The notes under the pieces are model-generated. The model saw only the letters and a list, made by a program, of their open reading frames with translations. It had not been told where the DNA came from and did not search any database. A stretch of DNA of 64,000 bases from the NCBI GenBank assembly GCA_945860085.1, contig CAMAPJ010000002.1:30520-94519 (forward strand). The letters are read 5' to 3'. The position numbers were made by a program, and so were the translations under genes. Numbering within the stretch: the stretch's first letter is position 1; each line of letters begins with the position of its first letter. Origin of the DNA: Synechococcus sp. UW140 (lineage in GTDB: Bacteria; Cyanobacteriota; Cyanobacteriia; PCC-6307; Cyanobiaceae). Below are positions 8,810 to 63,028 of this stretch, one piece after another.

Positions 8810-8828
8810 TCTCCCTGGAGCGGCCCGT

Positions 8829-43799: not shown

Positions 43800-44042
43800 A
43801 TGCCCGCTTTCTTGGCCTCCCTGCAGGGATGGTCGCAGCGCTGGAATTTCATCGAGCGGGCCAAGCTGGAGCGCCAGCTCTGGGAAGCCTTCGAACGCGG
43901 CGAAGCTCTGGAGGCCTTGGTGGAGCAATGCCCGCCCGGCTTTCAGAAGGAGGTGTGGACCACCACCTTGGTGCGCATTCGCAAGATCGAGACGATGATG
44001 CAGGGCCAACAAGCCCCGGCGGCCAAACCGGACTCGGACTAG
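43800..44042 (+). CDS. Small conserved hypothetical protein (80 aa)
   Basis: The ATG at 43800 gives [64 protein letters not shown]. Divergent from dxr. Confidence 0.5.
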
Positions 44043-45577: not shown

Positions 45578-45624
45578 GGGCGTCAGATCAAGGGCTAGGA
45601 CGGCTGGACCGTAAGGCCCATCCC

Positions 45625-47061: not shown

Positions 47062-47161
47062 CGCCTGGGACAGGAACGGCCTTGATCGGTAGGCGCCCAA
47101 GCCACTTCCGGCTCCCGCTGAGATGGCCCTTGGCCCTGGGCACGAATGGCACCATGGCCCG

Positions 47162-48328
47162 ATGCGGGTTCTGATCTTCACCTCCAGTGGGGGCACCGCC
47201 CACGACGCTGCCGCTGAAGCCTTGCGCGATTGGCTGCGCCAGTGGGATCCGGGCGGCGAGGTGGGGATCGAACAGGTGCTGGAGAACGCCAGTGGCCCCT
47301 ACCGGGGGGGAGTTGCTTTCTATAACTGGATCCAGAAGTACGCCCCCTGGATCCATCAGGCCTATTGGTGCCTGATGGAGTTTGAGGACCTGATCAAACC
47401 CGGCACCCTCCTGTTCGGCCGCCGCTACGTGGCCAACCTGCTGCGCCAGTTCAAACCCGATCTGATCATTTCCACCCATCCCCACACCAACCGGGGCCAC
47501 TTTGCTTTCGCCAAGCGCGTTTTGGGCCCCCAGCTGCGCTGCCTCACCTGCTGCACCGAACTCGCTGGCGGCTTTGGCTTCAGCCGCAACTGGATCAGCT
47601 CCAGCGCCGATGCCATCTGGGTCCAAACCCCCGAGGTTGCTTCTGAACTGCGGCGGCGGCGCTATCCCGCCGAGCGCATCGCCCTGCTAGGTCCCCTGCT
47701 CTATCCCGCCTACCACCGCCCGGCGCCAGCAACCCAGCAGCCGGGATCTGGTCCCGAAGCCCCTACCGGTCCCAGCGATGGTGGGGACAATCCCTCCAAA
47801 AACCAGGACCTACCGCTCTTGGTCTTGGGGGCCGGAGCCAATGGGGCCAATAACCATTGCCGCCTGCTAGAGACCCTGCGGCCCTTTGCCGGCCGATTAG
47901 CGGTGGTGGCCCTGACGGGACGACGCCAGGCAGCGTTGGAGCAGGTGCAGGCCTGGGCGGCGGCCCACCCAGCCCTGGCCGTGGAGGCCCTCGGCTTCCA
48001 GGGGCCCGAGCAGATGGTGGCCCTCTACCGCAGGGCCTGGGCCATGGTGGCCCGGCCAGGGGCCCGCACGGCCACCGAAGCCTTGCTGCTGGGCTGTCCG
48101 CTTATCTTCAACACCTTTGGCACGACCATGCCCCAGGAATGGTTAGCCCGCCGCTATTTCCGCAGTCGCGGCCTAGGGCGCTCGATTGATCGCCCCGAAC
48201 AGCTAGCGACCCTGGTGGCAGCCTGGCTCGACCAGCCCGAACGCTATGACGACTGGCGCCGTCTTTACCAGCACCATCTTCTCATTTCCGATCCCCCATC
48301 GCTGGGGCGCCTACTCCTGGGACGCTGA
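47162..48328 (+). CDS. MGDG-synthase/UgtP-like glycosyltransferase (GT28-type)
   Basis: MRVLIFTSSGGTAHDAAAEALRDWL N-terminus. LIISTHP, then a C-terminal GT-B lobe (ARPGARTATEALLLGCPLIF). Confidence 0.75.
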   Translation: MRVLIFTSSGGTAHDAAAEALRDWLRQWDPGGEVGIEQVLENASGPYRGGVAFYNWIQKYAPWIHQAYWCLMEFEDLIKPGTLLFGRRYVANLLRQFKPDLIISTHPHTNRGHFAFAKRVLGPQLRCLTCCTELAGGFGFSRNWISSSADAIWVQTPEVASELRRRRYPAERIALLGPLLYPAYHRPAPATQQPGSGPEAPTGPSDGGDNPSKNQDLPLLVLGAGANGANNHCRLLETLRPFAGRLAVVALTGRRQAALEQVQAWAAAHPALAVEALGFQGPEQMVALYRRAWAMVARPGARTATEALLLGCPLIFNTFGTTMPQEWLARRYFRSRGLGRSIDRPEQLATLVAAWLDQPERYDDWRRLYQHHLLISDPPSLGRLLLGR

Positions 48329-48433
48329 TGGCAGTTCGGTAGGCTCATCAAGCTTCGGAGGCGCCAAAAGCCTGGCCCAGCAAGGAGTTGCAGATTCCTC
48401 AATCCAGCTGAAGACCGTCCCCAAGCCACTGCG

Positions 48434-51400
48434 TTGCCTCCGCCGATCGCCCCTTCATTGACCTCCTCGCCGACAGTCCCCAGCCCTGAACCCATCGCGA
48501 TTGTGGGGATTGGTTGTCGGCTTCCCGGTGGTATCAACACGCCCGAGGCCTTCTGGGACTTGCTCTGCGATGGGCGCGATGGAATAACGGATGTTCCAGT
48601 CAGCCGCTGGGACCTGGGCCAGCATTTCGATCCCGATCCGCTCAAGCCCCTCAGCCAGCACGTGAGGCGCGGCGGCTTCATTGAGGGCATCGACCATTTT
48701 GATGCGGCCTTCTTCGGCATCTCGCCGCGGGAAGCCCTTTGCATGGATCCCCAACAGCGCCTGCTGCTGGAGGTGGCCTGGCGCGCCCTGGAGCATGGGG
48801 GCCAACCGCTGGAGAGCCTGCGCAGCCAGCCGGTAGGGGTGTTTATCGGCATCTCCAGCCTCGATTACAGCTCCCTGCTCTGGGCCTCCAGCGAGCACTA
48901 CGCCACCCCGGATAACGAGCCGTTCGTGCTGCCGGGCAATACGGGCTGCATCGCCGCCAACCGGATCTCCTATTTCCTCGACCTGAAGGGCCCCAGCTTC
49001 ACGGTCGACACGGCCTGCTCCTCCTCCCTGGTGGCGGTGCATCTGGCCTGCGAAAGCCTCTGGCGCGGCGAATCCTCGGCGGCCCTGGCCGGCGGGGTGC
49101 AGGCCCTGATCCATCCAGGCATCCAGATGAGCTTCTGCAAGGCCGGGCTGCTGGCGCCCGATGGACGTTGCAAGAGTTTTGCCGCCAGCGCCGATGGCTA
49201 CGTGCGCTCGGAAGGGGCGGGGGTGGTGCTGCTGAAAACCCTCTCGGAAGCCCGCCGCTGCGGCGATCCGATCGTGGCCCTGATCCATGGCACGGCCGTC
49301 AATTCCGACGGCCGCAGCAATGGCATGGCCGCCCCCAACCTCAAGGCCCAAATGGCCTGCGTGCGCCAAGCCTTTGCCCGCTCCGGACTAAACCCGGCCG
49401 CCACCCAGTACGTCGAAGCCCACGGCACGGGCACCCGCCAGGGGGATCCGATCGAACTGCGGGCCCTTGGCACCGTCCTGGGCGAAGGGCGCCCCAGCGA
49501 CCAGCCCTGCCGGGTGGGTTCGGTCAAAACGAACCTGGGCCATGGCGAAACCGCTGCCGGGATCACCGGGTTGATCAAGGCAGCCCTGTGCATCCAACAC
49601 CGCCAGATCCCGGCCAGCCTGCACTTCCGCACGCCCAATCCGGCGATTGATTTCGCCGGGCTGAAACTCCAGGTGCAAACCGCCCTGGAACCCTTCCCAG
49701 CCCCGGATCGCCCGGCGGTGGTGGGGGTGAGTTCCTTTGGCTTTGGCGGCACCAATGCCCATGCGGTGCTGGCCGAGGCGCCACCGGCAGAAAGCGGGTC
49801 CCCAGGCCCTCCACCCCTTCCCCTCCAGCTCCTAACCCTGTCGGCCCGCACCAGCGCCGCCCTCGGGGCCACGGCTCGCCGCTACCTGGAGCTGCTGCGC
49901 CAACGGCCGACCCTGGCCCTGGCCGATCTCTGCGCCAGCGCCAACCAACAGCGCACCGCCTTCCAGCAACGGCTGGTCTGCCTGGTCAGCGATCGCAGCG
50001 ATCTGGAACGCCAGCTGGAGGCCTTTGCCGAGGGCAAGGCCCCGGCGGCAAACCCCAGCGGAGCGCCGCCAGCAGCCCAGTCCCCCCTGCTGGCCGAAGC
50101 CGGGCGCCGGCCGGGCAAGCTGGCTTTCCTGATCAGTGGCCAAGGCTCCCAGGAGCGGGCCATGGCCAGGGACCTCTATGGCCGCCATCCGGTGTTCCGG
50201 GAGGCCTTCGATCGGGCCGCAGCCCTGGCGGACCCGAGCCTGGATTGGCCCCTGAAGCGGGTGCTCCTCCCAGGCCCTGGCGAGGAGCGGCAGGCGGCCC
50301 TGGCCCTGGAGCAAACCGCCATGGCCCAACCGGCCCTGTTCGTGGTGGGCTACGCCCTCAGCCAGCTCTGGGCCAGCTGGGGCGTGCAGCCGGACCTGCT
50401 GCTGGGCCATAGCGCCGGCGAAGTGTTAGCAGCCCACCTGGCCGGGGTGTTCGACCTGGCCGATGGGATTCGCCTGATCACGGCCCGGGGCCAGCTGATG
50501 CAGGCCCTGCCGGCCGACGGGGGCATGGTGGCCCTGCTCGCCCCCTTCGATCAGGTTCAAGCCCTGATCACCCCCAATTCCAGCCTGAGCGTGGCGGCCC
50601 TGAACGCTCCGCGCAACACGGTGGTGTCGGGTCCCGATACCGCCATCGGGGCCTTGGTGGAGCGGGCCCAGCGCGCTGGCGTTGCCACGGCCCGCCTGCC
50701 GGTGGCCCTTGGCTTCCACAGCCCGGCCATGGCCCCGATGCTGGACGCCTTTGCCCAGCTCCTGGCCCAACTGCGCCTGTCCCCACCGGCCCGGGGCCTG
50801 GTCAGCAGCCTCAGCGGTGGGCTGGCGGGGGCCGAGGTCGCCGATCCGGCCTATTGGTGTGACCAGGTGCTTGGGCCGGTGCGGTTCGCCCAAGGGGTGG
50901 CCACCCTCCAGGCCCAGGGGGCCCGACTGTTTGTTGACCTGGGCCCCAGGCCCAGCCTGATCACCCTGGCGAAGCAGAGCCTGGCCCCGGATCCCGGCCA
51001 GGGCCAGCCAGCCCCAGGCCAGGAGTCCCTGTTCCTGCCCTCCCTGGTGCCCGGTCAGGACGATTGGGGCGTGATCCTGGGCAGCCTGGCCCGGCTTCAT
51101 CTGCGCGGTCTGGTGATCGATTGGAGCTCCTTCCATGCCCCCTTTGCCCAGGCGCGGGTGGCCCTACCGGGCTATCCCTTCGAGCGCCAACGCCATTGGT
51201 GGCCAGCGGGCCGGGGCCCGCTCAAAGGAGCCCACCGCTGGCTCGACCACCTGGGCCTAGCCAGCCTTGATCAGGACCAGCCAGGGACCGGGGCAGCGGA
51301 GCCTGCGGCCCTAAGCCAAGGGCCATCGCCCCAGGGCGCCGATGCCGTCGGCGGCCCCCGGGCCCCAGTCGGGGCAGTCGATCGCAGTCCCAAGCGGCTG

Positions 51401-54400
51401 GATCTGCCGCCCGGCCACGTCCACTACCAAGTGACCCTGGACCCCAGCCAGCAGGCCGACCTGGCCGACCACGCCATCCGCGACCAGCCCGTCTTCCCGG
51501 CGGCCGGATTCCTGGTGTTGGCGGCCCAGGTGGCGGAACAGGAGGGGCTAGCCCTGAACTTTGGTGCGCTCAGCCTGGAGCGTCCCCTGCGGCTGGGCGC
51601 AGGCCCCCGGCAGCTGCACCTGGTGCTGGAAGAGGGAACCCTGGCTTTCCACAGCCTCAATCCCGCCGAGCGGGCCGCCGGCTGGACCAGCCATGGCCGA
51701 TTGGAGCTGGCGGAGGCCCCGGGCCCGATGCCCCCTGGCCAGGCCGCAGTGGCGCCAGCGGGTGCCCCCTTCGCCCCAGGGGTGGCAGCCAACGACGCTG
51801 AAACCCTGGATACGGCGGGCTTCTACGCAGCCCTGGCCCGCTGCGGCCTGAACTACGGCCCCCGCTTTCAAGGCCTCCAGCAGGTGCAACGCCAAGGCGG
51901 CCGGGCCTGGGCTGACCTGGTGCGCCCCGCCGGGGGTGGCGCCGAAGGCCTGCTGGACAGCTGCTTCCAGCTGGTGGCCGCCAGCCTGGATCCGGAGGCC
52001 GCCAGCGGCCAGCTGTTCCTGCCCGTGGGCCTGGAGGCCCTCGCCCTGGCGCCAGGGGAATGGCCCGAGCGATTGAGCTGCGAGGTGCGGCTGCAGGCCA
52101 ACCCCGAACCCGCCCAGGTGCAGGCCGACCTGATCTGGCATGCAGGCGGGGAACTGCTGGGCTGGATTCGCGGCTTCCGCCTGCGCCGCCTGCCGCGCCA
52201 GGCGGTGGACTGGATGTTCCCCGCAGCCCAGCTGCCCCCCCCGGAGCCGGCGCTCGATCCGGCCAGCTGGCTGATCCAGAGCCACTGGGAACCGCTGGGC
52301 TGGAAGCCGGCCCCAGCCGTTGAAGTCCCCCAGTCGCCTACGGCCCTAACCAGCGATCTGCCGTTGCAAGGGCGGCCCCTGTTGATCGGCGCCGGCAACC
52401 ATCAGGCCCTGGCCTTTGAAGCCTGGGCCAGCGCCCAGGGCCAGCCGCCCATGCGGGTGACCTTTGGCGACCCCCTGCCCGCCGGCTGGGGGCCGGTACT
52501 GGTCTGGCCGGATCCAAACAGCGCCGAGCCCCTGGCCTTGGCCACCCAGCTGCTGGCCCTGGTGCACCAGCTCCAGGCCCCGGGGAACTCCAGCAACGCG
52601 CTTCCCGAGCAGCCGACTGGTCCAGCGGCCCCAGGCTCCAGGCAGCCCCGGCCCCTATGGCTCGTGCTCGAGGGCGACGAGGCCTGGAGCGGGGTGCTGG
52701 CGGGCTTTGCCCAAACGGCCGCCCTGGAAACCCCCCAGCTGGCCTGGACCCAATTGCAGCTCCCCGCCGATCCCGGGCGCCAGCCCCAGGCCAGGGACTG
52801 GGACCAGCTCTGGGCCCTGGCAAGTACCGAAGCGAGCCTGCTCTGGCGTTCGGGCCAAGCCCATGGGCAACGGCTGAAACAGCTGGGGAGTGAACGGTTC
52901 CGCATCGTCAGTGGGGACCCCGGCCGCCTCGAAGCCCTGGTGCGCCAACCGCTAGCGCCAAGCTCCCTGGTGCATGGCGAGCTGGAGCTGGCCGTGGAGG
53001 CCACGGGGCTGAATTTCCGTGATGTGCTCAATGCCCTGGGCCTGTTGGCGGCCTACGGCGAAGAGCTCGGCCTGGCCGAGGGGGCCCAGGTGCCCTTTGG
53101 CGGCGAAGCCGTGGGCCGGGTGGTGGCGGTGGGACCCGGCGTGGATCCGGCCCTGGTCGGCCAGCGAATGCTGGCGGCCCTGGCCGTGGGCAGCCTGGCC
53201 AGCCATGTCACCTGCCGCGCCGAGCTCTGCATCCCCCTGCCGACTGGGCTCGATGGCGACACCGGCGCCAGCCTCAGCACGGTGTTCCTCACGGCCCTCT
53301 ACGGGCTGGTGCACCTGGCCCGGCTCCAACCGGGGGAAACGGTGTTGATCCACGCGGGCGCCGGCGGCGTCGGCCAGGCGGCCCTGCAGGTGGCCCGCCG
53401 CTGCGGCGCCCGCATCCTGGCCACCGCCAGTGGGCCCAAACAACAGGGCCTGCTGGACCAGGGCGTGGAGGCCGTGTTCGACTCCCGCAGCCTGGCCTTT
53501 GCCGAGCAGGTGCTCTCCCATACCGGCGGCAAGGGCGTCGATGTGGTGCTCAACAGCCTCAAGGGGGACTGGGTCGAGGCCAGCTTCCAGGCCCTAGCTC
53601 CAGGCGGGCGCTTCATCGAGCTGGGCAAGATTGAGATCTGGAGCCGGGCCCAGGCCCAGGAGCGCAGGCCCGATGCGGCCTACCTGCCCTTTGACCTGCT
53701 GGAGGTGGCCGCCGCCGAACCCCAGCTGGTGCGCCAGCTGCTCATCGACCTCTTCGCTGAGCTCGAGCAGGGCACCTTCCAGCCCATCCCCATCGAGGTT
53801 TTTCCCATCGCATCGGTGCCGGACGCCTTCCGGCTCCTGGCCCAGGCCCGGCACCGGGGCAAGGTTGTCGTGCGTCAGCACGACAGGCCCGCACCCCTGG
53901 CGATTGCTCCCCAGGCCACCTATCTGGTTACGGGCGCCCTGGGGGGCATCGGCCTGCGCCTGATCGACTGGTTGGCCCAGCGGGGGGCCACCTCCCTGCT
54001 GCTCGTCAGCCGCTCGGCCGGGTCCCCCTCGCCTGAGGTCAGGCACCGGCTCGAACAGCTGGAGGCCCGGGGCGTGCGCTGCGTCCTGGTGCCCCTGGAC
54101 CTGGCGGCCGGCCCAGAACCCGTAGCAACCGCCGTCCTGGCGGACGCGATCCGGGCCCTGCCCCCGGAACAGCCGTTGCGGGGTCTGTTCCATGCCGCTG
54201 GTGTCCTTGAGGACGGCCTGGTGGGCGGCCTGACGCCGGAGCGGCTGGCGGCCGTGCTGGCACCCAAGCTGGCCGGTTGGCAGCTGGTGGAGGCCGCCAT
54301 TGCTGAGGCGAAGGCTTCCCAGGAGAAACTTTTGGAAGGCAAAACTGCCGAAGGGAAGGCGGCCGTAGGGGAGACGGCCGAAGGGAAGACGGCTGAAGGG

Positions 54401-56413: not shown

Positions 56414-57753
56414 CCCTGACGCCGGCGCCCGGATGGGGTCTAGCGGTCCCGCCTGCGGTCTCCATTGGGTTGGCTGCTGATGGCGACCTGAGCTCCCTCC
56501 TGGCGTTGGTCCTGGCCGGGGCCCTGCTCCTCACCCTGGGCCTGCAGACCCTGCTCACCGGTTGGTTTGCGCTGCGGGTGCGCGGGTTGGGGCAGCAACG
56601 CCAGCGCTGGCCAGGGGAGCCCGCCGGGGGCTGGCCCGTGGCGGAGGTGGTGCTCTGCCTGCGGGGCGCCGATCCCAGCCTGGCCGGAGCCCTGGCAGCC
56701 CTCGCCCACCAGACCTACCCGGGCCCCTGGCGCCTGCAGCTGGTGGTGGATTCCCTGGCCGATCCGGCCTGGGCTGTGGCTGAAGCGAACCTGGCAGCCC
56801 TGGAGGCCAGCGGCCAGGCCAGTTGGCAGGCCGCAGTACTCAGGCCCCTGGAGCGGAGACCGCAGCGGGGCTCCCTCAAAAGCGCGTCCCTGCGCCAGGC
56901 CTTTGCGCATTTGCATCCCGCCACGGCCCTGGTGGCCCTGGTCGATGCCGATGCGATCGTCTCGCCCCAGTGGCTGACGGACCTGGCCCGGGCCTGCAGC
57001 CAGCCCGGGATCGGCGCGGTGTCGGGCAATCGCTGGTACCAGCCCCAGGGAGGCAGCCTGGCGGGGCGGGTGCGGGCCAGCTGGAATGGGGGTGCCCTGG
57101 TGCTGATGACCCTGCTAGGCATTCCCTGGGGAGGCTCCCTGGCGGTGCGCCGCCAGGTGATCGACGCCGGAACCTGGAGTGAGCGGCTCAAGACCAGCCT
57201 CTGCGAAGACACCTCCCTGATCGAGCCCCTGCGCCAGCTGGGCTGGCGCTACGCCTTCCGGCCCGAACTGATCGCCTTAGACGAGGACGACAGCATTGCT
57301 CTGGCGGACCTGGCCCCCTGGATCGGCCGGCAACTGCTCACCGCCCGGCTGCACCATCCGGCCTGGCCCCTGGTGGCCCTCCATGGCGGCGGCAGCGCCC
57401 TGCTGCTCACAGCCAGCGCCGCCTGGCTGCTCCTGGGTCGCTCCAGCCTCCTGGCGACAGCCCTCGGGCTCTACGAACTGGGCTGTATGGGCCTCTTGCT
57501 CTGGATCGAGGCCACGGCCCTCTTGGCCCTGGCGAAAACAGGGAGCCAAGCCATCCTCCCCAAGGCCGCGCCCTTCTGGCGCCGGGCCTGGGATTGGCTG
57601 GCCAACCTACCGATGACCCAACTCACCTATGCCCTCGCCTTCTGGCAGGCCTGCTGGGATCGCCGGGTGGGTTGGCGCGGCGTCAGCTACCGGGTGCTGG
57701 GGCGCCGCGACCCTGGTGGACCAGGGGTGGAAGCCCTGGGCAGGGACGAGTGA
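56410..57753 (+). CDS. Membrane glycosyltransferase, GT2/GT21 (ceramide-glucosyltransferase/HpnI-like)
   Basis: The ATG overlaps the PKS TGA (ATGA at 56410-56413). VVLCLRGADPSL...HQTYPGPWRLQLVVDS, DxD at LVDADAIV, GGSLAVRR, CEDTSL. N- and C-terminal TM segments. Confidence 0.8.
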   Translation: MTLTPAPGWGLAVPPAVSIGLAADGDLSSLLALVLAGALLLTLGLQTLLTGWFALRVRGLGQQRQRWPGEPAGGWPVAEVVLCLRGADPSLAGALAALAHQTYPGPWRLQLVVDSLADPAWAVAEANLAALEASGQASWQAAVLRPLERRPQRGSLKSASLRQAFAHLHPATALVALVDADAIVSPQWLTDLARACSQPGIGAVSGNRWYQPQGGSLAGRVRASWNGGALVLMTLLGIPWGGSLAVRRQVIDAGTWSERLKTSLCEDTSLIEPLRQLGWRYAFRPELIALDEDDSIALADLAPWIGRQLLTARLHHPAWPLVALHGGGSALLLTASAAWLLLGRSSLLATALGLYELGCMGLLLWIEATALLALAKTGSQAILPKAAPFWRRAWDWLANLPMTQLTYALAFWQACWDRRVGWRGVSYRVLGRRDPGGPGVEALGRDE

Positions 57754-57801
57754 CGCAACCGTTCAACGGTCCCTTGGCCCAGGATTGGGGGAGGTCCTAG
57801 C

Positions 57802-58482
57802 TCACCTGGCCAGCATCAGCCGCCTCAGCACCAACATGGACTGGCGCAGGTTGGCCTCATTGAGGTCGTCGTAGGTGGGGCGCAAAAAAGCGGGCAAGTC
57901 GGGCTCTAGGGCGATCTGGTGTTGCACGATCACGCCGCCGCGCACCCGGGTCAGGGTCCATTGACCCTGGAGGCTGAGGATCCGCTCGCCGCGGAGCATG
58001 CGGTAGCGCATCCAACGGGGCGCCCGTTCCTCCAGAGCCAACACAACCTTGATTGGCAGGCCAAAGGTGGAGGCGGCTTGGTAGGTCTGGGCCAGCTCCA
58101 GCTGGCTGCCCCGGCGGCTGAGCACCTTGGCCTGTTTGATGTCGGGCATCAGGCCCGCCATCGCTTCGTAGTTGGTCAGCACGGCCCAGGCCCGGGCCTC
58201 GTTTACGGGCACAAACAACCTGGCGGTGTAATGGCCCTTGCTGCCCGTTAGCAGCGGTTCAGCCATGGCAACCGGGCCTGGCAGGCCCGCGCCGCCGTCC
58301 TGCGCCAGCGCCTTCGAGCCGCCCGGGGGCTTGGCCCAGGCCCCCGGACCTGGGCCAAGCCCCCAACCCAGGCCCATACCAGCGCCTAGAATCAAGCACT
58401 GAATTAGCAACCACTGGCAAGCCCTAACTGGCTGCTTGCCTAAGGCCGCGGAGCCCCCCATGACCTTGCTTCTGCGGCCCAT
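57802..58482 (-). CDS. Secreted SRPBCC (START / polyketide-cyclase-dehydrase fold) protein
   Basis: Signal-like CQWLLIQCLILGAGMGLGWG. SRPBCC core VPVNEARAWAVLTNYEAMAGLMPDIKQAKVLSRRGSQLELAQTY...LQGQWTL. ATG at 58482 or 58461. Confidence 0.7.
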   Translation of the reverse strand: MGRRSKVMGGSAALGKQPVRACQWLLIQCLILGAGMGLGWGLGPGPGAWAKPPGGSKALAQDGGAGLPGPVAMAEPLLTGSKGHYTARLFVPVNEARAWAVLTNYEAMAGLMPDIKQAKVLSRRGSQLELAQTYQAASTFGLPIKVVLALEERAPRWMRYRMLRGERILSLQGQWTLTRVRGGVIVQHQIALEPDLPAFLRPTYDDLNEANLRQSMLVLRRLMLAR

Positions 58483-58491
58483 CAGGCCATT

Positions 58492-59892
58492 GTGATGGAT
58501 TGGGAAACGGGGCAAGATCCCCTGGGCAAGGGCCCCTTGGATCCGCGATCGCAAGTCGCTACCCCAGCTGCCAATGCAACCATCCCTGACCCCACGCCCC
58601 ATCGTGCCGACCGCGCTGGATGGGGGGCTGGGGCCGCAGCGACGGATCCGCCCCTTGATCTAAAGCGACGGCTCTACTTTTTGAGCGGTTTTGATCCCCG
58701 CGGCGCCTCCTTTTATGGGCGGCTGTTTAGCCAGGAGGTGGAGCGGCGCAATGCCACGGGCCCAACGGGCGACCGTCAGGTGATCCAACGGATCAGACCT
58801 CGGCCAGAGCGGGATCGCCTACTCAGCCGTTGGCGGATTGGGCCTCCCCAGGCCCCTCAAGCTGGCCCCTCCACCGGCAAACCCGACCTGGCTGGCGAGC
58901 CCCCGAGGCTGGGTCAAAACCATCGCGATCAAGGGCCTTCCCTGCCCGATCCCACCAGCCATGAAATTGGCTTTTTGCATTGGGATGACATTGCCCGCAG
59001 CCACTGGCCCAGGCGCTCTTTGGCCATGGTCGGCGAGATCGCCGAGGTCTACCGCTGGTATCTGCTACAGGGCGGCTTGCTGCGGATTGGCCGCCTCTGC
59101 CCCGGGGTGGCCCTCTGCGGCGCCTACCCAGCGCTGTTCACCGCTCTGGCGGTGCTGGTTGCCTTGCTCGCTGGCGCTGGCCTAGGAAAGCTGGTCTTCG
59201 GGATGGTTCCGGGCCCAGGCCTTGCCTTGGTCGCCGCAGTTCTAGTGGCCCTAGGAACCACCTGGCTGCTGCTGCTGGCGGCGTGGGCCCTGGCCGATCG
59301 GCTCGGAGTGGTGTGGCTCTGGCGCTCGATCCGCTTCACCCACCGGCTCGGCCAAGCCCGCGATGGCGACCTACGCGCCCGGGTGGGCGAGCTGGCCCAG
59401 CGCATCCTGGCGCTAGAAACCGAAGCACCGGCCGAATCGGTGCTGCTGGTGGGCCATAGCTCCGGCTCGTTTGTGATGGCGATGCTGGCGGCCGAGCTGC
59501 GCCGCCAGGACCCCGCCGCTGCGGTGACGGGCCGACTGAGCCTGCTCAGCCTAGGGCAGAACCTGGCCAACCTGGCGGTCTATCCCGGGGCCCAGGCGTT
59601 CCACGCCGATTTGCAAGAGTTGGCCCAAGGGCCCCGCCTGCCCTGGCTTGATGTCAGCAGCCGCGATGACCTGCTCTGCTTTGCCGGGGTTGATCCCTAC
59701 CGCAGTTGCGGCCTGCCGGCCCCCGCGGGGACGCCCTACCCAGCCCTGAAGCTCGTGACCCTGGCAGAGCCGAAGGGTTGGCTGGACCGGCTGGGACTGG
59801 CCTTTCAACAATTTGATCTCCACTTCCTTTACCTGCGCCAGGGTCCAGGCAGCCACGGCTTTGATCCCCTCAGCCAACTGCTGAAACCATGA
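58492..59892 (+). CDS. Membrane protein with C-terminal serine-hydrolase-like GHSSG motif
   Basis: Central hydrophobic hairpins (ALFTALAVLVALLAGAGLG..., LALVAAVLVALGTTWLLLLAAWAL), then VLLVGHSSGSFVMAMLAAEL. The stop overlaps the P450 start. The 5' end is unresolved, lying only 10 nt from the divergent gene's longest start. Confidence 0.5.
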   Translation: MMDWETGQDPLGKGPLDPRSQVATPAANATIPDPTPHRADRAGWGAGAAATDPPLDLKRRLYFLSGFDPRGASFYGRLFSQEVERRNATGPTGDRQVIQRIRPRPERDRLLSRWRIGPPQAPQAGPSTGKPDLAGEPPRLGQNHRDQGPSLPDPTSHEIGFLHWDDIARSHWPRRSLAMVGEIAEVYRWYLLQGGLLRIGRLCPGVALCGAYPALFTALAVLVALLAGAGLGKLVFGMVPGPGLALVAAVLVALGTTWLLLLAAWALADRLGVVWLWRSIRFTHRLGQARDGDLRARVGELAQRILALETEAPAESVLLVGHSSGSFVMAMLAAELRRQDPAAAVTGRLSLLSLGQNLANLAVYPGAQAFHADLQELAQGPRLPWLDVSSRDDLLCFAGVDPYRSCGLPAPAGTPYPALKLVTLAEPKGWLDRLGLAFQQFDLHFLYLRQGPGSHGFDPLSQLLKP

Positions 59893-61550
59893 GCTCCCCC
59901 CTGGTAACGGGCTCTAGCCCAGCCCATGAAGGAACGGCCGCCTCGGCCAACCTTGATGAACCGCCAGAGCAGTCGGAGCAGGATTCAAGCGAGCCGATCT
60001 GGCCCCAACCCCAACCCTTCACCGCCAATCTGCTCAAGCGCTTAAGCCGGGGCCTGGGCTCCTGGTTTGGCCTGCTGAATGAGTGGGATTTCCGCATCGG
60101 CATTGGCAGCACCAACGTCTTGGGCCTCGAGTTGGTGCTGGTTAACCAGCCGGACCTGGTGCGCCAGGTGCTCGTGGACCAACCAGACACCTTCCCCAAA
60201 CATCCCTACACCCAGTGGATCTTGGAGCCCCTGATTGGCCAGGGACTCTTTGCGGTGAATGGGGCCGAGTGGCAGCGCCAGCGGCGTTTGGTCGATCAGG
60301 CCCTGCAGGTCACCCAGTTGCGCCGGGTGTTTCCCCTGATGACAGGGGCGGTGCAGGCCATGCTCGAACGGCTTGAGGCCCAAGGGGGCGCCCAACAAGC
60401 GGGCCCAGGCCCTGGCCCAGGCCAGGCCGACCGGGGCAACACACCGGAGCTGAGCTTCGATGCCCAGGAGGCGATGAGCCTGGTGACGGCCGATGTGATC
60501 GTGCGCACCATCCTCTCGACGCCCCTCGACCCCTGCGAGGCCCGGACAATCTTTGCGGCCTTTGCCCGCTACCAACGCCGGGCCAGCCTGGTGATGGTGT
60601 TGCGCTTTCTGCGCCTGCCCAAGACCTGGCTGCAGCGGCTGCTGCAACCCGATGCCGGGTTGATCCGCAGCTGGATCGGCTCAGCCATTGCCGAACGGTG
60701 CCGCCGCCAACCGGGCCCGGGCCCAAACTCCAGCCCCGCTACCGACCATGGGGACCTGCTCGCGGCCCTGATGCGGGCCACAGATCGGGCAGACACCCCC
60801 ACCACCGGGTGTCCAGGTCAGGCGGCTGATGGGACAGCAGACAAGCCCAGCGAACCGGTGGCAGGGGGGGACGACAGCGGCAGGGGCTTCAGCCAGGAGG
60901 AACTCATCGACCAGGTGTGCGTGCTGTTTCTTGCTGGCCATGAAACCTCCGCCAGCGCCCTGGCCATGGCCTGCTATCTCCTGGCGCGCTACCCCGAGGC
61001 CCAGGCCCGCTTTGCGCAGGAAATTGAGCAGGTCCGCAGGGGATTCCCACTCCCCGGATCGCCCCCCAGTGATCACCGCCCCCTGGGCTACGAGGACCTA
61101 CGCCGCCTGCCCTATGGCACGGCGTTGCTTCAGGAAACCCTGCGGCTCTACCCCCCCTTGAGCTTCTTCATCCGGGAAAGCCAGGCCCCAAGCCAGCTCG
61201 GCGAAAGCCGCTGCCCAGTGGGGGCGCTGCTTGCGATTTCCCCTTGGGTGATCCAACGCCACGAGCAGCACTGGAGCGAACCCAACAGGTTTCGGCCGGA
61301 GCGCTTTCTCGCCACCCAGGCCAATGAGGAGGAGAAACAATGGGCTCGCGACGCCTATCTGCCCTTTGGCCTGGGACCGCGCAAGTGCCCTGGGGCCGCC
61401 TTTGCCCTGCAGGAAGCCCTGCTGGTGCTCGCGGAGCTGGTGAGCCGCTATGAACTCCTGGGCGAGCCCGGCCAGGAACCAGACCTGGTGGGCAACCTGA
61501 CCCTGCGCTCGCGCAATGGGGTGCCGTTGAGACTGCGGCGCCGCCTCTAA
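59889..61550 (+). CDS. Cytochrome P450
   Basis: Heme loop FGLGPRKCPGAAFA, I-helix LFLAGHETSASAL, ETLRLYPP (ExxR). ATGA overlap with the upstream gene. Confidence 0.9.
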   Translation: MSSPLVTGSSPAHEGTAASANLDEPPEQSEQDSSEPIWPQPQPFTANLLKRLSRGLGSWFGLLNEWDFRIGIGSTNVLGLELVLVNQPDLVRQVLVDQPDTFPKHPYTQWILEPLIGQGLFAVNGAEWQRQRRLVDQALQVTQLRRVFPLMTGAVQAMLERLEAQGGAQQAGPGPGPGQADRGNTPELSFDAQEAMSLVTADVIVRTILSTPLDPCEARTIFAAFARYQRRASLVMVLRFLRLPKTWLQRLLQPDAGLIRSWIGSAIAERCRRQPGPGPNSSPATDHGDLLAALMRATDRADTPTTGCPGQAADGTADKPSEPVAGGDDSGRGFSQEELIDQVCVLFLAGHETSASALAMACYLLARYPEAQARFAQEIEQVRRGFPLPGSPPSDHRPLGYEDLRRLPYGTALLQETLRLYPPLSFFIRESQAPSQLGESRCPVGALLAISPWVIQRHEQHWSEPNRFRPERFLATQANEEEKQWARDAYLPFGLGPRKCPGAAFALQEALLVLAELVSRYELLGEPGQEPDLVGNLTLRSRNGVPLRLRRRL

Positions 61551-61768
61551 GGCTAAGCGAACCAAGACAATTCCCCTTCACGCACCGATCCTCAAGCGAG
61601 ACAAAGACGATCCCACAGCAGCACTTAGGCACGCTTAATAACGCTTCTCACTAATCACTCAGCCGAAGATACTACCGTCAAATTCGCATAAGCGAGTTGA
61701 ATCGTGAGCCCATAGTGCTATTATTTGAAGCGATTTGCCTGGCTCCACGAGTGGCCCCTCCACCCAAG

Positions 61769-63025: not shown

Positions 63026-63028
63026 GTG

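What the first reader, a model, noticed from the sequence alone, without database searches (positions are those of the whole stretch)
47162..61550. Orphan PKS-reductase cluster with two glycosyltransferases, an SRPBCC protein, a GHSSG membrane protein and a P450: candidate novel glycolipid / alkyl-glycoside pathway in a picocyanobacterium
The block reads as follows. A GT28/MGDG-synthase-like glycosyltransferase sits at 47162-48328. It is followed by a 2659-aa type I PKS carrying a full reductive loop and a terminal thioester reductase. The PKS motifs read in sequence are DTACSSS, GHSAG, HAIRDQPVFP, LIHAGAGGVGQAA, YLVTGALGGIG, LGLDSL and LLTGSTGFLGAYLL/YSQTK. Next is a GT2/GT21-like membrane glycosyltransferase whose ATG overlaps the PKS stop. 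A secreted SRPBCC/START-fold protein is encoded divergently. A GHSSG-motif membrane protein is translationally coupled to a cytochrome P450 (FGLGPRKCPG). An MFS transporter lies immediately upstream. A fully reducing module ending in an R domain is expected to release a saturated aldehyde or alcohol. Two glycosyltransferases, a P450 and a lipid-binding-fold periplasmic protein would then fit hydroxylation, glycosylation and export of a long-chain alkyl glycoside or unusual glycolipid. The cyanobacterial pathways with related logic that I know are the PUFA-synthase-like hgl heterocyst-glycolipid genes and the Ols olefin synthase (FAAL-ACP-KS-AT-KR-ACP-ST-TE). Both have a different domain organisation, and the genomic context here is a non-heterocystous unicellular lineage. 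I cannot determine from sequence alone whether an equivalent cluster has been characterised.
Basis: partly seen in the sequence, partly recalled or inferred. Interest (0 to 1): 0.85.

Follow-up and report, generated by a model that had tools for sequence, protein, structure and literature searches.

The report
Conserved picocyanobacterial PKS glycolipid gene cluster
A gene cluster kept in the same order in about thirty species of tiny planktonic cyanobacteria, including some Prochlorococcus, most likely makes, decorates and exports a sugar-capped long-chain fatty alcohol, and I found no paper that characterises it.

Summary
Window 45625-61550 encodes MFS, a GT28/MGDG-synthase-like glycosyltransferase (GT), a 2659-aa KS-AT-DH-ER-KR-ACP-R polyketide synthase (PKS), a GT21-like membrane GT (ATGA overlap with the PKS stop), a divergent signal-peptide SRPBCC protein, and a GHSSG membrane protein coupled by ATGA to a P450. 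All quoted motifs are present.

The same gene order recurs in about 30 picocyanobacterial species genomes, down to 41-48% protein identity, with dN/dS of 0.18-0.34. The genes therefore form one conserved unit.

Outside its orthologues, the ACP-R end is closest to HglB, the reductase of heterocyst-glycolipid synthesis, and to cyanobacterial KR-ACP-TR ends that sit beside a GT. The KS-AT part is CurL/MAS-like, not PUFA-like. This is not an hgl island, not Ols, and not Calteau's CF-20.

The GT21 subfamily is also linked, in Planctomycetota, to a stand-alone thioester reductase and a wax-synthase-like acyltransferase. Marine and Prochlorococcus versions of the PKS have lost the AT domain. An orphan probable outer-membrane protein, usually with Wza/Wzz, almost always adjoins the cluster.

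Best reading (about 0.55): a long-chain alkyl-glycoside envelope glycolipid pathway. It is uncharacterised and is a new variant of a known kind. No product has been shown.

The parts
45625..47061 (+). MFS transporter (DHA3/Mef-like), the proposed inner-membrane exporter or flippase of the product
   Evidence: Pfam MFS_1 at 2.6e-14 and TIGR00900 at 2.3e-18, below the curated cutoff. About 12 hydrophobic segments. Directly upstream of GT28 in 20 or more related loci, and relocated downstream of the P450 in L004.
47123..48328 (+). GT28-family glycosyltransferase (MGDG-synthase/UgtP-like), soluble or peripheral; an alternative start lies at 47162
   Evidence: PF06925 MGDG_synth scores 31.7 bits, above the cutoff of 25. 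The best solved relatives are the processive diacylglycerol beta-glucosyltransferase 9wde (1.3e-08) and plant MGD1 4wyi (2.7e-08). No TM segment. Identity across orthologues is 51-86%.
48434..56413 (+). Single-module, fully reducing cis-AT type I PKS with a terminal thioester reductase, 2659 aa, with no loading domain
   Evidence: Domains, motifs. The best solved relatives of KS-AT are CurL 4mz0 (793 bits), MAS and DEBS. Only 18 residues precede the KS domain.
48488..49771 (+). KS domain (Cys195 in DTACSSS, HGTGT, TNLGH)
   Evidence: PF00109 and PF02801; motifs. Identity to orthologues is 67-95%, but only 29% to the KS of a true hgl island.
50117..51109 (+). AT domain (GHSAG, Ser660; 'LGFHS' in place of HAFH, with Phe retained, which indicates the malonyl type)
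   Evidence: PF00698 at 9.1e-53; motifs. This domain is cleanly deleted in marine and Prochlorococcus orthologues: window residues about 530-890 are replaced by about 50 residues, with both flanking linkers kept.
51401..52207 (+). DH domain (HAIRDQPVFP, i.e. HxxxDxxxxP; GLNYGPRF; LLDSCFQ)
   Evidence: PKS_DH_N and PS-DH; motifs. The Gly-to-Asp variant is also present in Prochlorococcus MIT 1341 (HLVRDWVVFP).
52916..53872 (+). ER domain (LIHAGAGGVGQAA)
   Evidence: ADH_N, ADH_zinc_N and ADH_zinc_N_2, TIGR02824-like, motif.
53915..54733 (+). KR domain (GALGGIG; 'LED' in the position of the B-type LDD motif; YGAAN), interrupted by a low-complexity insert
   Evidence: PF08659 in two stretches; motifs.
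54335..54443 (+). 15-bp tandem repeat (about 7 copies, encoding EGKTA-like units) inside the KR domain
   Evidence: Tandem Repeats Finder: period 15, 7.3 copies, score 106. Visible as TAEGKTAEGK in the protein.
54974..55171 (+). ACP (LGLDSL, Ser2209)
   Evidence: PF00550 at 2.9e-11; motif.
55313..56362 (+). Terminal thioester reductase domain (GSTGFLG, YSQTK)
   Evidence: TIGR01746 scores 265 bits, above the cutoff of 213. PF07993 at 6.4e-54. The best solved relative is MxaA 4u7w at 239 bits. Among the nearest non-orthologous relatives are about 500-aa HglB-type ACP-TR proteins at 36-39% identity.
56410..57753 (+). GT21/GT2-family membrane glycosyltransferase; its ATG overlaps the PKS stop (ATGA)
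   Evidence: PF13506 scores 38.9 bits, above the cutoff of 21.7, and HpnI TIGR03472 scores 3.8e-15, below its cutoff. The only PDB match is human ceramide glucosyltransferase, at 2.2e-05 over about 90 N-terminal profile positions. The motifs DADA, SGNRWY and CEDT are invariant. TM segments are predicted. The overlap is read.
57802..58602 (-). SRPBCC/START-fold protein with an N-terminal signal-like segment; the likely real start is near 58461-58482
   Evidence: Polyketide_cyc2 scores 28.9 bits and Polyketide_cyc 26.5 bits, both above cutoff. There is one N-terminal hydrophobic segment. Low-GC orthologues start with clear signal peptides, for example MGKSSRAVLLGLIVGVSAPIGLVFAQS. Same position and strand in all related loci.
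58492..59892 (+). Membrane-inserted alpha/beta-hydrolase-like protein (GHSSG) with a putative Ser323-Asp(387/393)-His444 triad; conserved from residue about 58
   Evidence: No Pfam or NCBIfam hit. Invariant columns are listed. The AF2 model has pLDDT 78.8 and pTM 0.79, with long helices spanning residues 176-311. Nearly all listed Foldseek PDB hits are alpha/beta hydrolases, but they are weak (best E 3e-3, TM 0.18-0.30). Two to three TM helices are predicted. The family has 1035 50%-identity clusters.
59889..61550 (+). Cytochrome P450, translationally coupled to the hydrolase gene (ATGA)
   Evidence: PF00067 at 2.2e-61. FGLGPRKCPG, AGHETS and ETLR are present. The best solved relatives are 7wzl, CYP97A3, CYP46A1 and CYP4B1. 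The overlap is read, and the coupling is conserved in L003 and L004.
61697..63025 (+). Wza-type polysaccharide export protein: a neighbour and a separate transcription unit, possibly functionally linked
   Evidence: Poly_export and SLBB. A 146-nt AT-richer spacer and a promoter-like site at 61697-61724 precede it. Present within 8 kb of the cluster in most related loci, in either orientation.
63026..64000 (+). 5' part of a Wzz/PCP-type gene that runs off the window; in the closest relatives an orphan probable outer-membrane protein follows it
   Evidence: Translation. In L001 the order is Wza, Wzz, then a 690-aa orphan.

Best explanation
This is a vertically conserved but patchily distributed biosynthetic and export cluster. 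Its most likely product is a polyketide-extended long-chain fatty-alcohol glycoside, i.e. an alkyl-glycoside envelope glycolipid.

Proposed mechanism (S = shown from sequence, I = inferred):
1. The stand-alone module KS-AT-DH-ER-KR-ACP-R has every catalytic motif intact (S). It has no loading domain, so its KS is probably primed by a fatty-acid-synthase-derived acyl thioester (I).
2. It extends the chain with malonyl units and fully reduces each one. The number of rounds is unknown (I). In marine lineages the AT domain is deleted, so malonyl must be supplied in trans, probably by FabD (I).
3. The HglB/MxaA-like R domain releases the chain as a primary alcohol (I).
4. The membrane GT21 enzyme (ceramide-glucosyltransferase/HpnI family) glycosylates the C1 hydroxyl (I).
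5. The GT28 enzyme (MGDG-synthase/UgtP family) adds a second sugar, either to the first sugar or to a P450-introduced hydroxyl (I).
6. The coupled P450 and membrane serine hydrolase/acyltransferase form an optional tailoring pair, for hydroxylation followed by acylation or ester chemistry. The pair is absent in two marine Synechococcus genomes (S for the absence, I for the role).
7. The MFS protein moves the lipid across the inner membrane. The signal-peptide SRPBCC protein carries it through the periplasm. The adjoining orphan probable outer-membrane protein, with or without Wza/Wzz, takes it to the cell surface (I).
For: - Domain content and intact motifs.
- Translational coupling: PKS/GT21 and hydrolase/P450 overlap as ATGA. 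GT28/PKS and hydrolase/P450 overlap by 1 nt in Prochlorococcus MIT 1341, and hydrolase/P450 overlap by 4 nt in L004.
- Synteny: 21 long loci carry the whole set from GT28 to P450 (the MFS gene upstream in 20), in identical order and strand. About 30 cyanobacterial species genomes in all carry at least part of it, with identities down to 41-48%.
- Purifying selection on every gene: dN/dS 0.18-0.34 in the usable comparisons, apart from 0.63 for the MFS gene against L012.
- R domain: after the orthologues come KR-ACP-TR ends at 39-41% identity, one of which (L006) is followed directly by a GT4. HglB-type ACP-TR proteins follow at 36-39%, and one was verified inside a PUFA-like hgl island (L005). 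The best solved R domain is MxaA, which makes a primary alcohol (my knowledge of Barajas et al. 2015).
- Both GTs match lipid-acceptor enzymes only.
- Independent linkage: in 16 Planctomycetota loci the closest non-cyanobacterial GT21 relatives (45-48% identity) sit between a WS/DGAT-family O-acyltransferase and a stand-alone thioester-reductase/'male sterility' protein. This GT21 subfamily therefore travels with acyl-thioester reductases in two phyla.
- SRPBCC signal peptides.
- Hydrolase nucleophile elbow, fold and TM hairpin.
- The orphan probable outer-membrane protein adjoins the cluster in 24 of the 27 loci with at least 1.5 kb of downstream sequence.
- Another KS-AT-DH...KR-ACP-TR PKS lies next to a DevBCA-like MacB/HlyD exporter.
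Against: - There is no chemical, expression or genetic evidence of any kind.
- No FAAL, loading ACP or acyl-transfer partner was found, so the starter, the chain length and whether the module iterates are all unknown. A single round would only add C2 to a fatty acyl chain.
- The R domain could stop at the aldehyde.
- GT acceptor specificity cannot be read from sequence. The GT21/ceramide-glucosyltransferase PDB match is weak (E 2e-5) and covers only the N-terminal ~90 profile positions.
- The hydrolase assignment rests on a motif plus Foldseek hits that are all above E 0.001. The family also has paralogues that are not linked to the PKS.
- SRPBCC proteins also include cyclases and dehydratases.
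- There is no PPTase in the cluster.
- The outer-membrane assignment of the 590-690 aa orphan rests only on composition and a C-terminal Phe, and that gene lies outside the window.
Confidence: 0.55

Rival explanations
1. The lipid made here is not an end product. It is the membrane anchor or primer of a capsular or extracellular polysaccharide that is exported by the adjoining Wza/Wzz(Wzc) machinery and the orphan outer-membrane protein. The two GTs would build the lipid-proximal sugars.
For: Wza, a Wzz/Wzc-type gene and the 590-690 aa orphan lie next to the cluster in the window, L001, L003, L078, L079, L055 and most other long loci. This holds even though the block is inverted in some lineages, and it directly abuts SRPBCC where the P450 pair is missing. 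Sugar-nucleotide genes (UDP-glucose dehydrogenase, epimerases) follow in L003, L079 and L055.
Against: Wza/Wzz are absent within 6.9 kb in L004/L022, L020 and L039. In the window Wza has its own spacer and a promoter-like site. No polymerase, flippase or initiating phosphoglycosyl transferase was seen inside the conserved unit. Adjacency may simply reflect an inherited cell-envelope neighbourhood.
Confidence: 0.15
2. The chemistry is the same (a hydroxylated alkyl or acyl glycoside), but the product is a secreted specialised metabolite such as a biosurfactant, an allelochemical or an anti-grazer/anti-phage compound. The logic would resemble fungal sophorolipid clusters (P450, two GTs, a transporter and an esterase) rather than a structural envelope lipid.
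For: The gene inventory (P450, two GTs, MFS efflux pump of the Mef/DHA3 type, serine hydrolase) parallels glycolipid biosurfactant clusters (my knowledge; inventory). The distribution is patchy within picocyanobacteria. For example, there was no hit in the species representatives of PCC 6307, PCC 7001 or WH 5701, and no 8-kb PKS is listed for them in Calteau's table. That pattern is typical of accessory metabolism.
Against: A periplasmic SRPBCC carrier and an adjoining outer-membrane protein fit envelope insertion at least as well as secretion. Strict synteny over deep divergence, including streamlined Prochlorococcus genomes, suggests a physiological role.
Confidence: 0.15
3. The PKS releases an aldehyde (or alcohol) that goes to a non-glycosylated fate, such as a hydrocarbon, wax, amine or ether lipid. 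The GTs, P450 and SRPBCC protein would then act on another substrate, for example a hopanoid, carotenoid or diacylglycerol, so the cluster would be a mixed lipid-remodelling island.
For: The GT21 protein's best NCBIfam hit is the hopanoid enzyme HpnI, and GT28 resembles DAG glycosyltransferases. The P450 resembles the carotenoid hydroxylase CYP97A3. R domains can stop at the aldehyde.
Against: All of those hits are far below the family cutoffs. The GT21 start overlaps the PKS stop codon, and the GT28 stop overlaps the PKS start in Prochlorococcus. Such coupling argues for a shared pathway. The same GT21 subfamily is linked to reductases in Planctomycetota.
Confidence: 0.1

Closest known systems
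Heterocyst (heterocyte) glycolipid pathway: hgl island (HglE/F/G/D/C/A, HglB, HglT) with the DevBCA-HgdD exporter
   Same: The logic is the same: a PKS builds a long saturated chain, an ACP-thioester reductase releases it as a fatty alcohol, a GT caps C1 with a sugar, and a dedicated exporter places it in the envelope next to a polysaccharide layer. After its orthologues and a small KR-ACP-TR group, the window's ACP-R is closest to HglB-type proteins (36-39% identity).
   Different: - The chain builder is a single CurL/MAS-like cis-AT polypeptide, not a PUFA-synthase-like multi-subunit system. KS identity to an hgl island is only 29%.
- The reductase is fused to the PKS.
- The GTs are GT28 and GT21. 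HglT, by contrast, is a group-1 glycosyltransferase (my knowledge).
- The export candidates are MFS, SRPBCC and an orphan outer-membrane protein, not DevBCA/TolC.
- A P450 and a hydrolase are present.
- The host is unicellular and has no heterocysts. The 2025 phylum-wide hgl survey text never mentions Synechococcus, Cyanobium or Prochlorococcus.
Ols olefin synthase (FAAL-ACP-KS-AT-KR-ACP-ST-TE) and CurM-type terminal modules
   Same: It is a cyanobacterial single-module cis-AT PKS of the CurL/CurM sequence type that acts on a fatty acyl chain.
   Different: There is no FAAL-ACP loading region, no sulfotransferase and no TE. DH and ER are present, and release is reductive. The expected product is an alcohol or aldehyde, not a terminal olefin.
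Mycocerosic acid synthase (MAS)-like iterative fully reducing PKSs
   Same: The core domain order is identical: KS-AT-DH-ER-KR-ACP with no loading domain. MAS is the third-best solved relative at 740 bits.
   Different: A terminal R domain is added. The AT looks malonyl-type rather than methylmalonyl-type. No FadD-type activating partner was found. Iteration cannot be tested here.
MxaA terminal reductase (myxalamid) and other alcohol-forming PKS/NRPS R domains
   Same: It is the best solved relative of the R domain (4u7w, 239 bits), with the same GxTGFxG and YxxxK motifs.
   Different: MxaA ends an NRPS module in a hybrid assembly line. Here the R domain ends a fully reducing PKS module, and it is closer to HglB-type proteins (about 320-335 bits).
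Planctomycetota three-gene module: WS/DGAT-like acyltransferase, GT21, stand-alone thioester reductase
   Same: The GT21 proteins are 45-48% identical to the window's, which is as close as the Prochlorococcus orthologues. They are likewise paired with an acyl-thioester reductase, and with an acyl-transferring enzyme in the place of the hydrolase.
   Different: There is no PKS, GT28, SRPBCC protein or P450. The reductase is a separate protein. L029 additionally has an Spt/BioF-like enzyme, a methyltransferase and an MMPL transporter.
Fungal sophorolipid/cellobiose-lipid clusters (P450, two GTs, acyl/acetyl-transferase or lactone esterase, transporter); an analogy from my own knowledge
   Same: The set of tailoring functions is the same: a P450, two sequential GTs, a serine esterase/acyltransferase and an efflux transporter acting on a long aliphatic chain.
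   Different: The proteins are unrelated and the host is eukaryotic. The aglycone there is a hydroxy fatty acid from primary metabolism, not a PKS-R product. There is no periplasmic carrier or outer-membrane step.
Calteau et al. 2014 cluster family CF-20 ('PKS widely distributed in picocyanobacteria')
   Same: It is found in the same host group and is likewise described as uncharacterised and vertically inherited.
   Different: CF-20 spans only 2955-3103 bp in every genome listed, so it cannot be this 8-kb PKS cluster. The strains listed (PCC 6307, PCC 7001, WH 5701, MIT9313 and others) are given no 8-kb PKS. Only CC9311 has an orphan PKS, of 6537 bp, whose size fits the AT-less variant. That link was not tested.

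Membership tests
Type I cis-AT fully reducing PKS module with terminal thioester reductase (PKS-R) | KS with a Cys-His-His triad | tested here: met
   DTACSSS (C195), HGTGT and TNLGH. PF00109 at 2.5e-92.
Type I cis-AT fully reducing PKS module with terminal thioester reductase (PKS-R) | Integrated AT with a GHSxG serine | tested here: met
   GHSAG with Ser660; PF00698 at 9.1e-53. This is not met in the marine and Prochlorococcus orthologues, where the AT is deleted.
Type I cis-AT fully reducing PKS module with terminal thioester reductase (PKS-R) | Complete reductive loop (DH, ER, KR) with cofactor and catalytic motifs | tested here: met
   DH: HxxxDxxxxP (a variant of HxxxGxxxxP), GYxYGPxF-like and DxxxQ. 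ER: HAGAGGVG. KR: GALGGIG and YGAAN. Pfam domains.
Type I cis-AT fully reducing PKS module with terminal thioester reductase (PKS-R) | ACP serine, followed by an R domain above the curated threshold | tested here: met
   LGLDSL. TIGR01746 scores 265.1 bits, above 213.35. GSTGFLG and YSQTK are present.
hgl heterocyst-glycolipid island | PUFA-synthase-like multi-subunit PKS (HglE/F/G/D/C/A: KS-CLF pairs, PfaD-type ER) | tested here: not met
   This is a single polypeptide whose best relatives are CurL, MAS and DEBS. Identity to the KS of a verified hgl island (L005) is only 29%, with no PfaD or CLF. PfaA TIGR02813 scores far below its cutoff.
hgl heterocyst-glycolipid island | HglB-type ACP-thioester reductase | tested here: inconclusive
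   The ACP-R region is 36-39% identical over more than 90% of its length to HglB-type proteins, which rank just after a small KR-ACP-TR group among its non-orthologous relatives. However, it is fused to the PKS, and no phylogeny with support values was made.
hgl heterocyst-glycolipid island | HglT glycosyltransferase and DevBCA/HgdD-type exporter in the island | tested here: not met
   The GTs here are PF06925/GT28 and PF13506/GT21, and the transporter is an MFS. No ABC/MFP/TolC genes lie in 45-64 kb.
Ols/CurM-type olefin-forming PKS | FAAL-ACP loading region, and a sulfotransferase-thioesterase off-loading pair | tested here: not met
   No AMP-binding, sulfotransferase or thioesterase domains were found. 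The KS starts at residue 19 and the protein ends in an R domain.
MAS-like iterative PKS | KS-AT-DH-ER-KR-ACP order with no loading domain | tested here: met
MAS-like iterative PKS | Iterative use of the single module on a long-chain acyl primer | not testable with these tools
   This needs product analysis or in vitro reconstitution.
GT21 (ceramide glucosyltransferase / HpnI) family | Pfam GT21 model above threshold, and GT-A DxD plus downstream acidic and RW motifs | tested here: met
   PF13506 scores 38.9 bits, above 21.7. DADA, SGNRWY and CEDT are invariant in four orthologues. The only PDB match is ceramide glucosyltransferase. It is not an HpnI equivalog (55.6 bits against a cutoff of 310).
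GT28 (MGDG synthase / UgtP / MurG) family | MGDG_synth N-terminal domain above threshold, and a GT-B C-terminal half | tested here: met
   PF06925 scores 31.7 bits, above 25. The PDB matches 9wde and 4wyi cover most of the length. It is not an equivalog of UgtP or MurG.
alpha/beta-hydrolase fold serine hydrolases/acyltransferases | GxSxG nucleophile elbow after a beta-strand, with Asp and His after later strands, on an alpha/beta-hydrolase fold | tested here: inconclusive
   GHSSG, D387/D393 and H444 are invariant in 45 sequences and sit after predicted strands. Nearly all listed Foldseek hits are alpha/beta hydrolases, but with E >= 3e-3 and TM <= 0.30. No Pfam model reaches threshold.
Calteau et al. 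CF-20 picocyanobacterial PKS family | Cluster of about 3 kb shared by BL107, CC9311, MIT9313, PCC 6307, WH 5701 and others | tested here: not met
   The supplementary table gives 2955-3103 bp for every CF-20 entry. The PKS gene here is 7980 bp.

The most novel reading that the evidence does not exclude
Unicellular picocyanobacteria, including some Prochlorococcus and marine Synechococcus, make a previously unrecognised class of PKS-derived long-chain alkyl glycosides that works as an analogue of heterocyst glycolipids. These lipids are placed in the cell envelope by a dedicated three-compartment route of a new kind: an MFS transporter, a periplasmic SRPBCC lipid carrier and an orphan outer-membrane protein, possibly working with Wza/Wzz. 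They would alter surface or permeability properties such as grazing, phage adsorption, gas or solute diffusion and aggregation. They would also leave long-chain alkyl-glycoside or diol biomarkers in lake and ocean sediments that are unrelated to nitrogen fixation.
Probability: 0.3. Interest if true: 0.8.

Novelty: new variant of a known kind. Interest (0 to 1): 0.6.

Why it matters
Picocyanobacteria dominate the phytoplankton of oceans and many lakes, and they are regarded as poor in PKS pathways. A PKS-glycolipid cluster kept intact from freshwater Synechococcus/Cyanobium to streamlined Prochlorococcus genomes, next to envelope-export genes, points to an unknown surface lipid with ecological consequences for grazing, phage attachment, aggregation and permeability.

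If the product is a long-chain alkyl glycoside, three things follow:
- It would be a second, enzymatically independent route to heterocyst-glycolipid-like molecules.
- It would be a possible confounder, or a new tool, for sediment lipid biomarkers.
- It would be a natural example of one orthologous PKS existing in both cis-AT and AT-less forms.

The work also flags three unannotated protein families with testable roles: a membrane alpha/beta hydrolase family with more than 1000 clusters, an orphan outer-membrane protein, and a reductase-linked GT21 subfamily. Cultured carriers exist, so the hypothesis can be tested directly.

Tried and rejected
I fell back to the ACP-R region, so no database-wide KS or whole-PKS neighbour list exists.
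2. I considered that this cluster is Calteau's CF-20. I rejected that on size, about 3 kb in all genomes.
3. I considered an hgl or hgl-like island. I rejected it: the KS type, subunit structure, GT family and exporter all differ.
4. I considered Ols/CurM. I rejected it: there is no FAAL, ST or TE.
5. I tried to name the GHSSG protein. Pfam and NCBIfam gave nothing. A PDB profile search gave only E 0.2-2.5 hits at the nucleophile elbow. Foldseek against the PDB gave only weak alpha/beta-hydrolase hits. Distant family members gave only sub-threshold Thioesterase/Lipase_3/Abhydrolase_6 hits. It stays a 'probable' hydrolase or acyltransferase.
6. I tried to name the 590-690 aa neighbour. Pfam, NCBIfam and a PDB profile search gave nothing. 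It could not be folded because it lies outside the window.
7. The promoter and terminator scan was uninformative. It found one promoter-like site, at the Wza start, and fewer terminator-like sites than in shuffled sequence.
8. Rfam found only two tRNAs, far from the cluster.
9. Three of the 24 dN/dS comparisons gave pN above 0.7, which means misaligned or frameshifted MAG sequence. I discarded them.
10. Eight literature searches found no characterised equivalent. Only generic remarks exist that Cyanobium MAGs carry PKS BGCs. The library lacks most subscription journals, so absence is not proven.
11. I considered that the Planctomycetota hits were mis-binned cyanobacterial contigs. I rejected that because some lie on contigs of 215-703 kb with a different gene context. 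Conversely, contigs labelled Pimelobacter or Chitinophaga pinensis that carry the full cyanobacterial synteny (and a short Klebsiella-labelled fragment with two cluster genes) are probably mislabelled.

Full report
**1. What is in the sequence**

The region 42-64 kb reads as follows:
- dxr (minus strand, 42426-44012)
- cysS (minus strand, 44120-45679)
- an MFS transporter (45625-47061)
- a GT28/MGDG-synthase-like glycosyltransferase (47123-48328)
- one 2659-aa ORF (48434-56413)
- a GT21/GT2-like glycosyltransferase
- an SRPBCC protein on the opposite strand (57802-58602)
- a protein with no family match (58492-59892)
- a cytochrome P450 (59889-61550)
- Wza (61697-63025)
- the start of a Wzz-type gene that runs off the window

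The big ORF carries KS, AT, DH, ER, KR, ACP and a thioester reductase. The reductase scores above NCBI's curated threshold (TIGR01746, 265 bits against 213).

The two claimed translational couplings are literal ATGA overlaps.

The rest of the window is ordinary housekeeping: a P-type ATPase, polA, gltX, map, an NTRC-type thioredoxin reductase fusion and pntAB. The only changes are that the unit begins at the MFS gene and that a few start codons are uncertain.

**2. The genes are one conserved unit**

The unannotated GHSSG protein has 198 close relatives. All of the named ones come from Cyanobium, Synechococcus or Prochlorococcus.

I looked at the genomic context of five of these relatives, at 44-81% identity. 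The order is always GT28, PKS, GT21, SRPBCC on the minus strand, the GHSSG protein, then the P450. An MFS gene lies upstream where the sequence reaches that far; in one genome it lies downstream of the P450.

A scan of one genome per GTDB species, using a GT21 alignment, returned 71 loci. A tblastn matrix of those loci shows the following:
- 30 loci are the cyanobacterial cluster or fragments of it.
- 21 long loci have the whole set from GT28 to the P450 (the MFS gene upstream in 20) in the same order and on the same strands.
- Protein identities fall as low as 41-48% in Prochlorococcus.

dN/dS against three relatives is 0.18-0.34 for every gene in the usable comparisons, apart from one outlier of 0.63 for the MFS gene against L012. 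That includes the GHSSG protein (0.20-0.26) and the SRPBCC protein (0.31).

Several MAG labels on these loci (Pimelobacter, Chitinophaga pinensis, Klebsiella) are evidently wrong.

**3. What kind of PKS it is**

By sequence, the KS-AT part is closest to the cyanobacterial cis-AT module CurL, and then to MAS and DEBS. It is only 29% identical to the KS of a genuine hgl island.

Only 18 residues precede the KS domain, so there is no loading domain. No FAAL or ACP gene lies nearby.

From established motif rules:
- The AT has GHSAG and keeps the Phe of the HAFH motif, which indicates the malonyl type.
- The KR has LED in the LDD position, which indicates the B type.
- The DH has HxxxDxxxxP instead of HxxxGxxxxP. 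That variant is conserved in Prochlorococcus.

The ACP-R end tells a different story. After the picocyanobacterial orthologues come two groups of relatives:
- KR-ACP-TR ends at 39-41% identity, one of which is followed directly by a GT4.
- ACP-TR proteins of about 500 aa from Nostoc, Nodularia and Trichormus, at 36-39% identity over more than 90% of the query. I confirmed that one of these is HglB, inside a PUFA-synthase-like hgl island.

The best solved R domain is MxaA, which makes a primary alcohol (my knowledge). So the chain-building half is a standard modular PKS. The release half belongs with the reductases that make fatty-alcohol aglycones for glycosylation.

**4. The tailoring and export genes**

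GT28 matches only lipid glycosyltransferases among solved structures, namely the processive DAG glucosyltransferase and plant MGD1.

GT21 matches only ceramide glucosyltransferase, weakly. It keeps DxD, RW and ED-type motifs and has TM segments.

The closest non-cyanobacterial GT21 relatives are 45-48% identical, as close as the Prochlorococcus orthologues. They lie in Planctomycetota MAGs, some on contigs of 215-703 kb. There, in 16 loci, the GT21 gene sits between a wax-ester-synthase/DGAT-family acyltransferase and a stand-alone thioester-reductase/'male sterility' protein. This is independent evidence that the GT21 subfamily works on the products of acyl-thioester reductases.

A rough NJ tree places the cyanobacterial GT21 clade as sister to that Planctomycetota clade, inside wider Planctomycetota diversity. 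This hints at old horizontal transfer. The tree has no support values.

The P450 is intact and soluble. Its nearest solved relatives act on lipophilic substrates: CYP97A3, CYP46A1 and CYP4B1.

For the GHSSG protein:
- It has an invariant GHSSG, plus Asp and His positions placed after predicted strands.
- Its confident AF2 model (pLDDT 78.8) has a long helical insert, within which hydropathy predicts two or three TM helices.
- Nearly all of its listed Foldseek hits are alpha/beta hydrolases, but none is significant.
- It belongs to a large unannotated family of 1035 clusters at 50% identity.
- That family includes paralogues elsewhere in picocyanobacterial genomes.

SRPBCC orthologues from low-GC genomes begin with obvious signal peptides.

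**5. Variants and neighbours**

In Prochlorococcus and marine Synechococcus the PKS is about 2150-2190 aa. The AT domain has been excised cleanly, while the KS-AT linker and the post-AT linker remain. The same orthologous PKS therefore exists in cis-AT and AT-less forms.

Two marine Synechococcus genomes lack the hydrolase/P450 pair together. This suggests that the pair is one optional tailoring module.

A conserved orphan protein of 590-690 aa adjoins the cluster in 24 of the 27 loci with at least 1.5 kb of downstream sequence. Its properties and placement:
- It is Gly- and aromatic-rich and ends in Ser-Phe, and it is 55% identical between freshwater and marine forms.
- It has no Pfam, NCBIfam or PDB match.
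- It is usually convergent with the P450.
- It lies directly after SRPBCC where the P450 pair is missing.
- It lies after Wza-Wzz in the window's own lineage.

I read it as a probable outer-membrane beta-barrel. In the window it would lie just beyond 64000. Wza and Wzz/Wzc accompany it in most lineages, but not in all.

**6. Most likely mechanism**

- Shown: an intact, single-module, fully reducing PKS-R; two lipid-type GTs, one translationally coupled to the PKS; a coupled hydrolase-P450 pair; a signal-peptide SRPBCC protein; an MFS transporter; strict co-conservation.
- Inferred: a fatty-acid-synthase-derived acyl chain primes the KS and is extended with malonate for an unknown number of rounds.
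- Inferred: the R domain releases a primary alcohol, GT21 glycosylates C1, and GT28 adds a second sugar, either to the first sugar or to a P450-made hydroxyl.
- Inferred: the hydrolase acylates or trims.
- Inferred: the MFS protein, the SRPBCC protein and the outer-membrane protein move the product to the surface.

I put about 0.55 on 'PKS-derived alkyl-glycoside glycolipid of the envelope'. The rivals are:
- a lipid anchor or primer for a Wza/Wzz-exported polysaccharide (0.15)
- the same chemistry, but a secreted surfactant or allelochemical (0.15)
- a mixed island in which the GTs act on other lipids (0.10)

No chemistry, expression data or genetics exists for any of these readings.

**7. 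Comparison with what is known**

The cluster works like the heterocyst-glycolipid pathway. It fails the hgl membership tests on PKS type, GT family and exporter.

The 2025 phylum-wide hgl survey reports hgl islands in 35 cyanobacteria outside the heterocytous clade. None of them has hglT, and the paper's text never mentions Synechococcus, Cyanobium or Prochlorococcus.

It is not Ols. It is not Calteau's CF-20, which is about 3 kb everywhere. Another KS-AT-DH...KR-ACP-TR PKS next to a DevBCA-like exporter shows that the PKS-R architecture itself is not unique.

Eight full-text searches found no characterisation. The only related remark is that Cyanobium MAGs contain PKS BGCs. antiSMASH and MIBiG were not available.

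**8. Verdict**

This is a real, intact, co-conserved orphan cluster. It is best classed as a new variant of a known kind: reductively released polyketide lipid plus glycosylation.

Interest is moderate to high (0.6). Orphan BGCs are common. This one, however, is lineage-wide in ecologically dominant picocyanobacteria that are otherwise poor in PKSs, and it reaches into Prochlorococcus. It is tied to envelope export, it shows a cis-AT/AT-less polymorphism, and it can be tested directly in cultured strains.

Noticed in passing
window 54335-54443: A 15-bp tandem repeat of about 7 copies encodes EGKTA-like units inside the PKS KR domain, between its structural and catalytic halves. KR is the least conserved PKS domain among close relatives (61-81% identity).
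   Followed up: partly
L003 1688-8272; also L025, L026, L027, L039, L050, L055, L056: Prochlorococcus and marine Synechococcus orthologues of the PKS lack the AT domain. Window residues about 530-890 are replaced by about 50 residues, and both flanking linkers are retained. This is an orthologous cis-AT versus AT-less pair.
   Followed up: yes
L029 8526-13766; also L030, L031, L033-L036, L040-L043, L045-L047, L052, L059: Planctomycetota MAGs carry a conserved trio: a WS/DGAT-like acyltransferase, a GT21 (45-48% identical to the window's) and a stand-alone thioester reductase. L029 adds an Spt/BioF-like enzyme, a methyltransferase and an MMPL transporter. This is probably an undescribed fatty-alcohol or amino-lipid glycoside pathway.
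   Followed up: partly
L001 16437-18509; L003 12624-14681 (-); L055 11786-13561 (-); L078 12619-14565 (-); L079 12576-14648 (-): An orphan protein of 590-690 aa is Gly- and aromatic-rich, ends in Ser-Phe, and has no Pfam, NCBIfam or PDB match. It adjoins the cluster in 24 of the 27 loci with enough downstream sequence. It is probably an outer-membrane beta-barrel. In the window it would lie just past 64000.
   Followed up: partly
L055 and L056 (marine Synechococcus CUG2171 and AG-679-C18): These loci lack the hydrolase and P450 genes together. The orphan outer-membrane gene then directly follows SRPBCC, and a Wzc with a kinase-type AAA domain replaces the plain Wzz.
   Followed up: partly
P0243 cluster (member P0388/P0389, Cyanobium sp. 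Alchichica 3B3-8F6, 314-kb contig): The same genome that carries the PKS-linked GHSSG gene has a second, paralogous copy on another contig. The family as a whole has 1035 clusters at 50% identity and no Pfam model.
   Followed up: partly
L011, L015, L028 (record titles): L011 and L015 carry the full cyanobacterial synteny, and L028 (5.2 kb) carries close GT21 and P450 copies. They are deposited as MAGs of Pimelobacter simplex, Chitinophaga pinensis and Klebsiella. These are almost certainly mis-binned or mislabelled picocyanobacterial contigs.
   Followed up: no
L028 16-2600: On this 5.2-kb contig the GT21 gene appears to be followed directly by the P450, with no SRPBCC or GHSSG gene between them. 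This is either a rearranged variant or an assembly artefact.
   Followed up: no
L080 4322-16856: Another organism has a KS-AT-DH...KR-ACP-TR PKS, split over two or three calls, next to a MacB-type ABC transporter and an HlyD-like fusion protein. That layout resembles the DevBCA glycolipid exporter.
   Followed up: no
window 28001-30000 and 62001-64000: Two segments have clearly lower G+C (0.54) than the window average of about 0.64. The first overlaps a 762-aa MscS-domain ORF, and the second overlaps the Wza 3' end and the Wzz 5' end.
   Followed up: no
window 3073-5229 (+) and 8558-9670 (-): ORFs of 718 aa and 370 aa have no Pfam match at E <= 1e-5. They may not both be real genes in this high-GC sequence.
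   Followed up: no
Calteau et al. 2014 supplementary table (PMC4247773), strain CC9311: Synechococcus CC9311 is listed with an orphan PKS of 6537 bp and 100% GC-deviating genes. The size fits the AT-less variant seen here (6447-6585 bp). If it is the same, a model strain carries the cluster.
   Followed up: no
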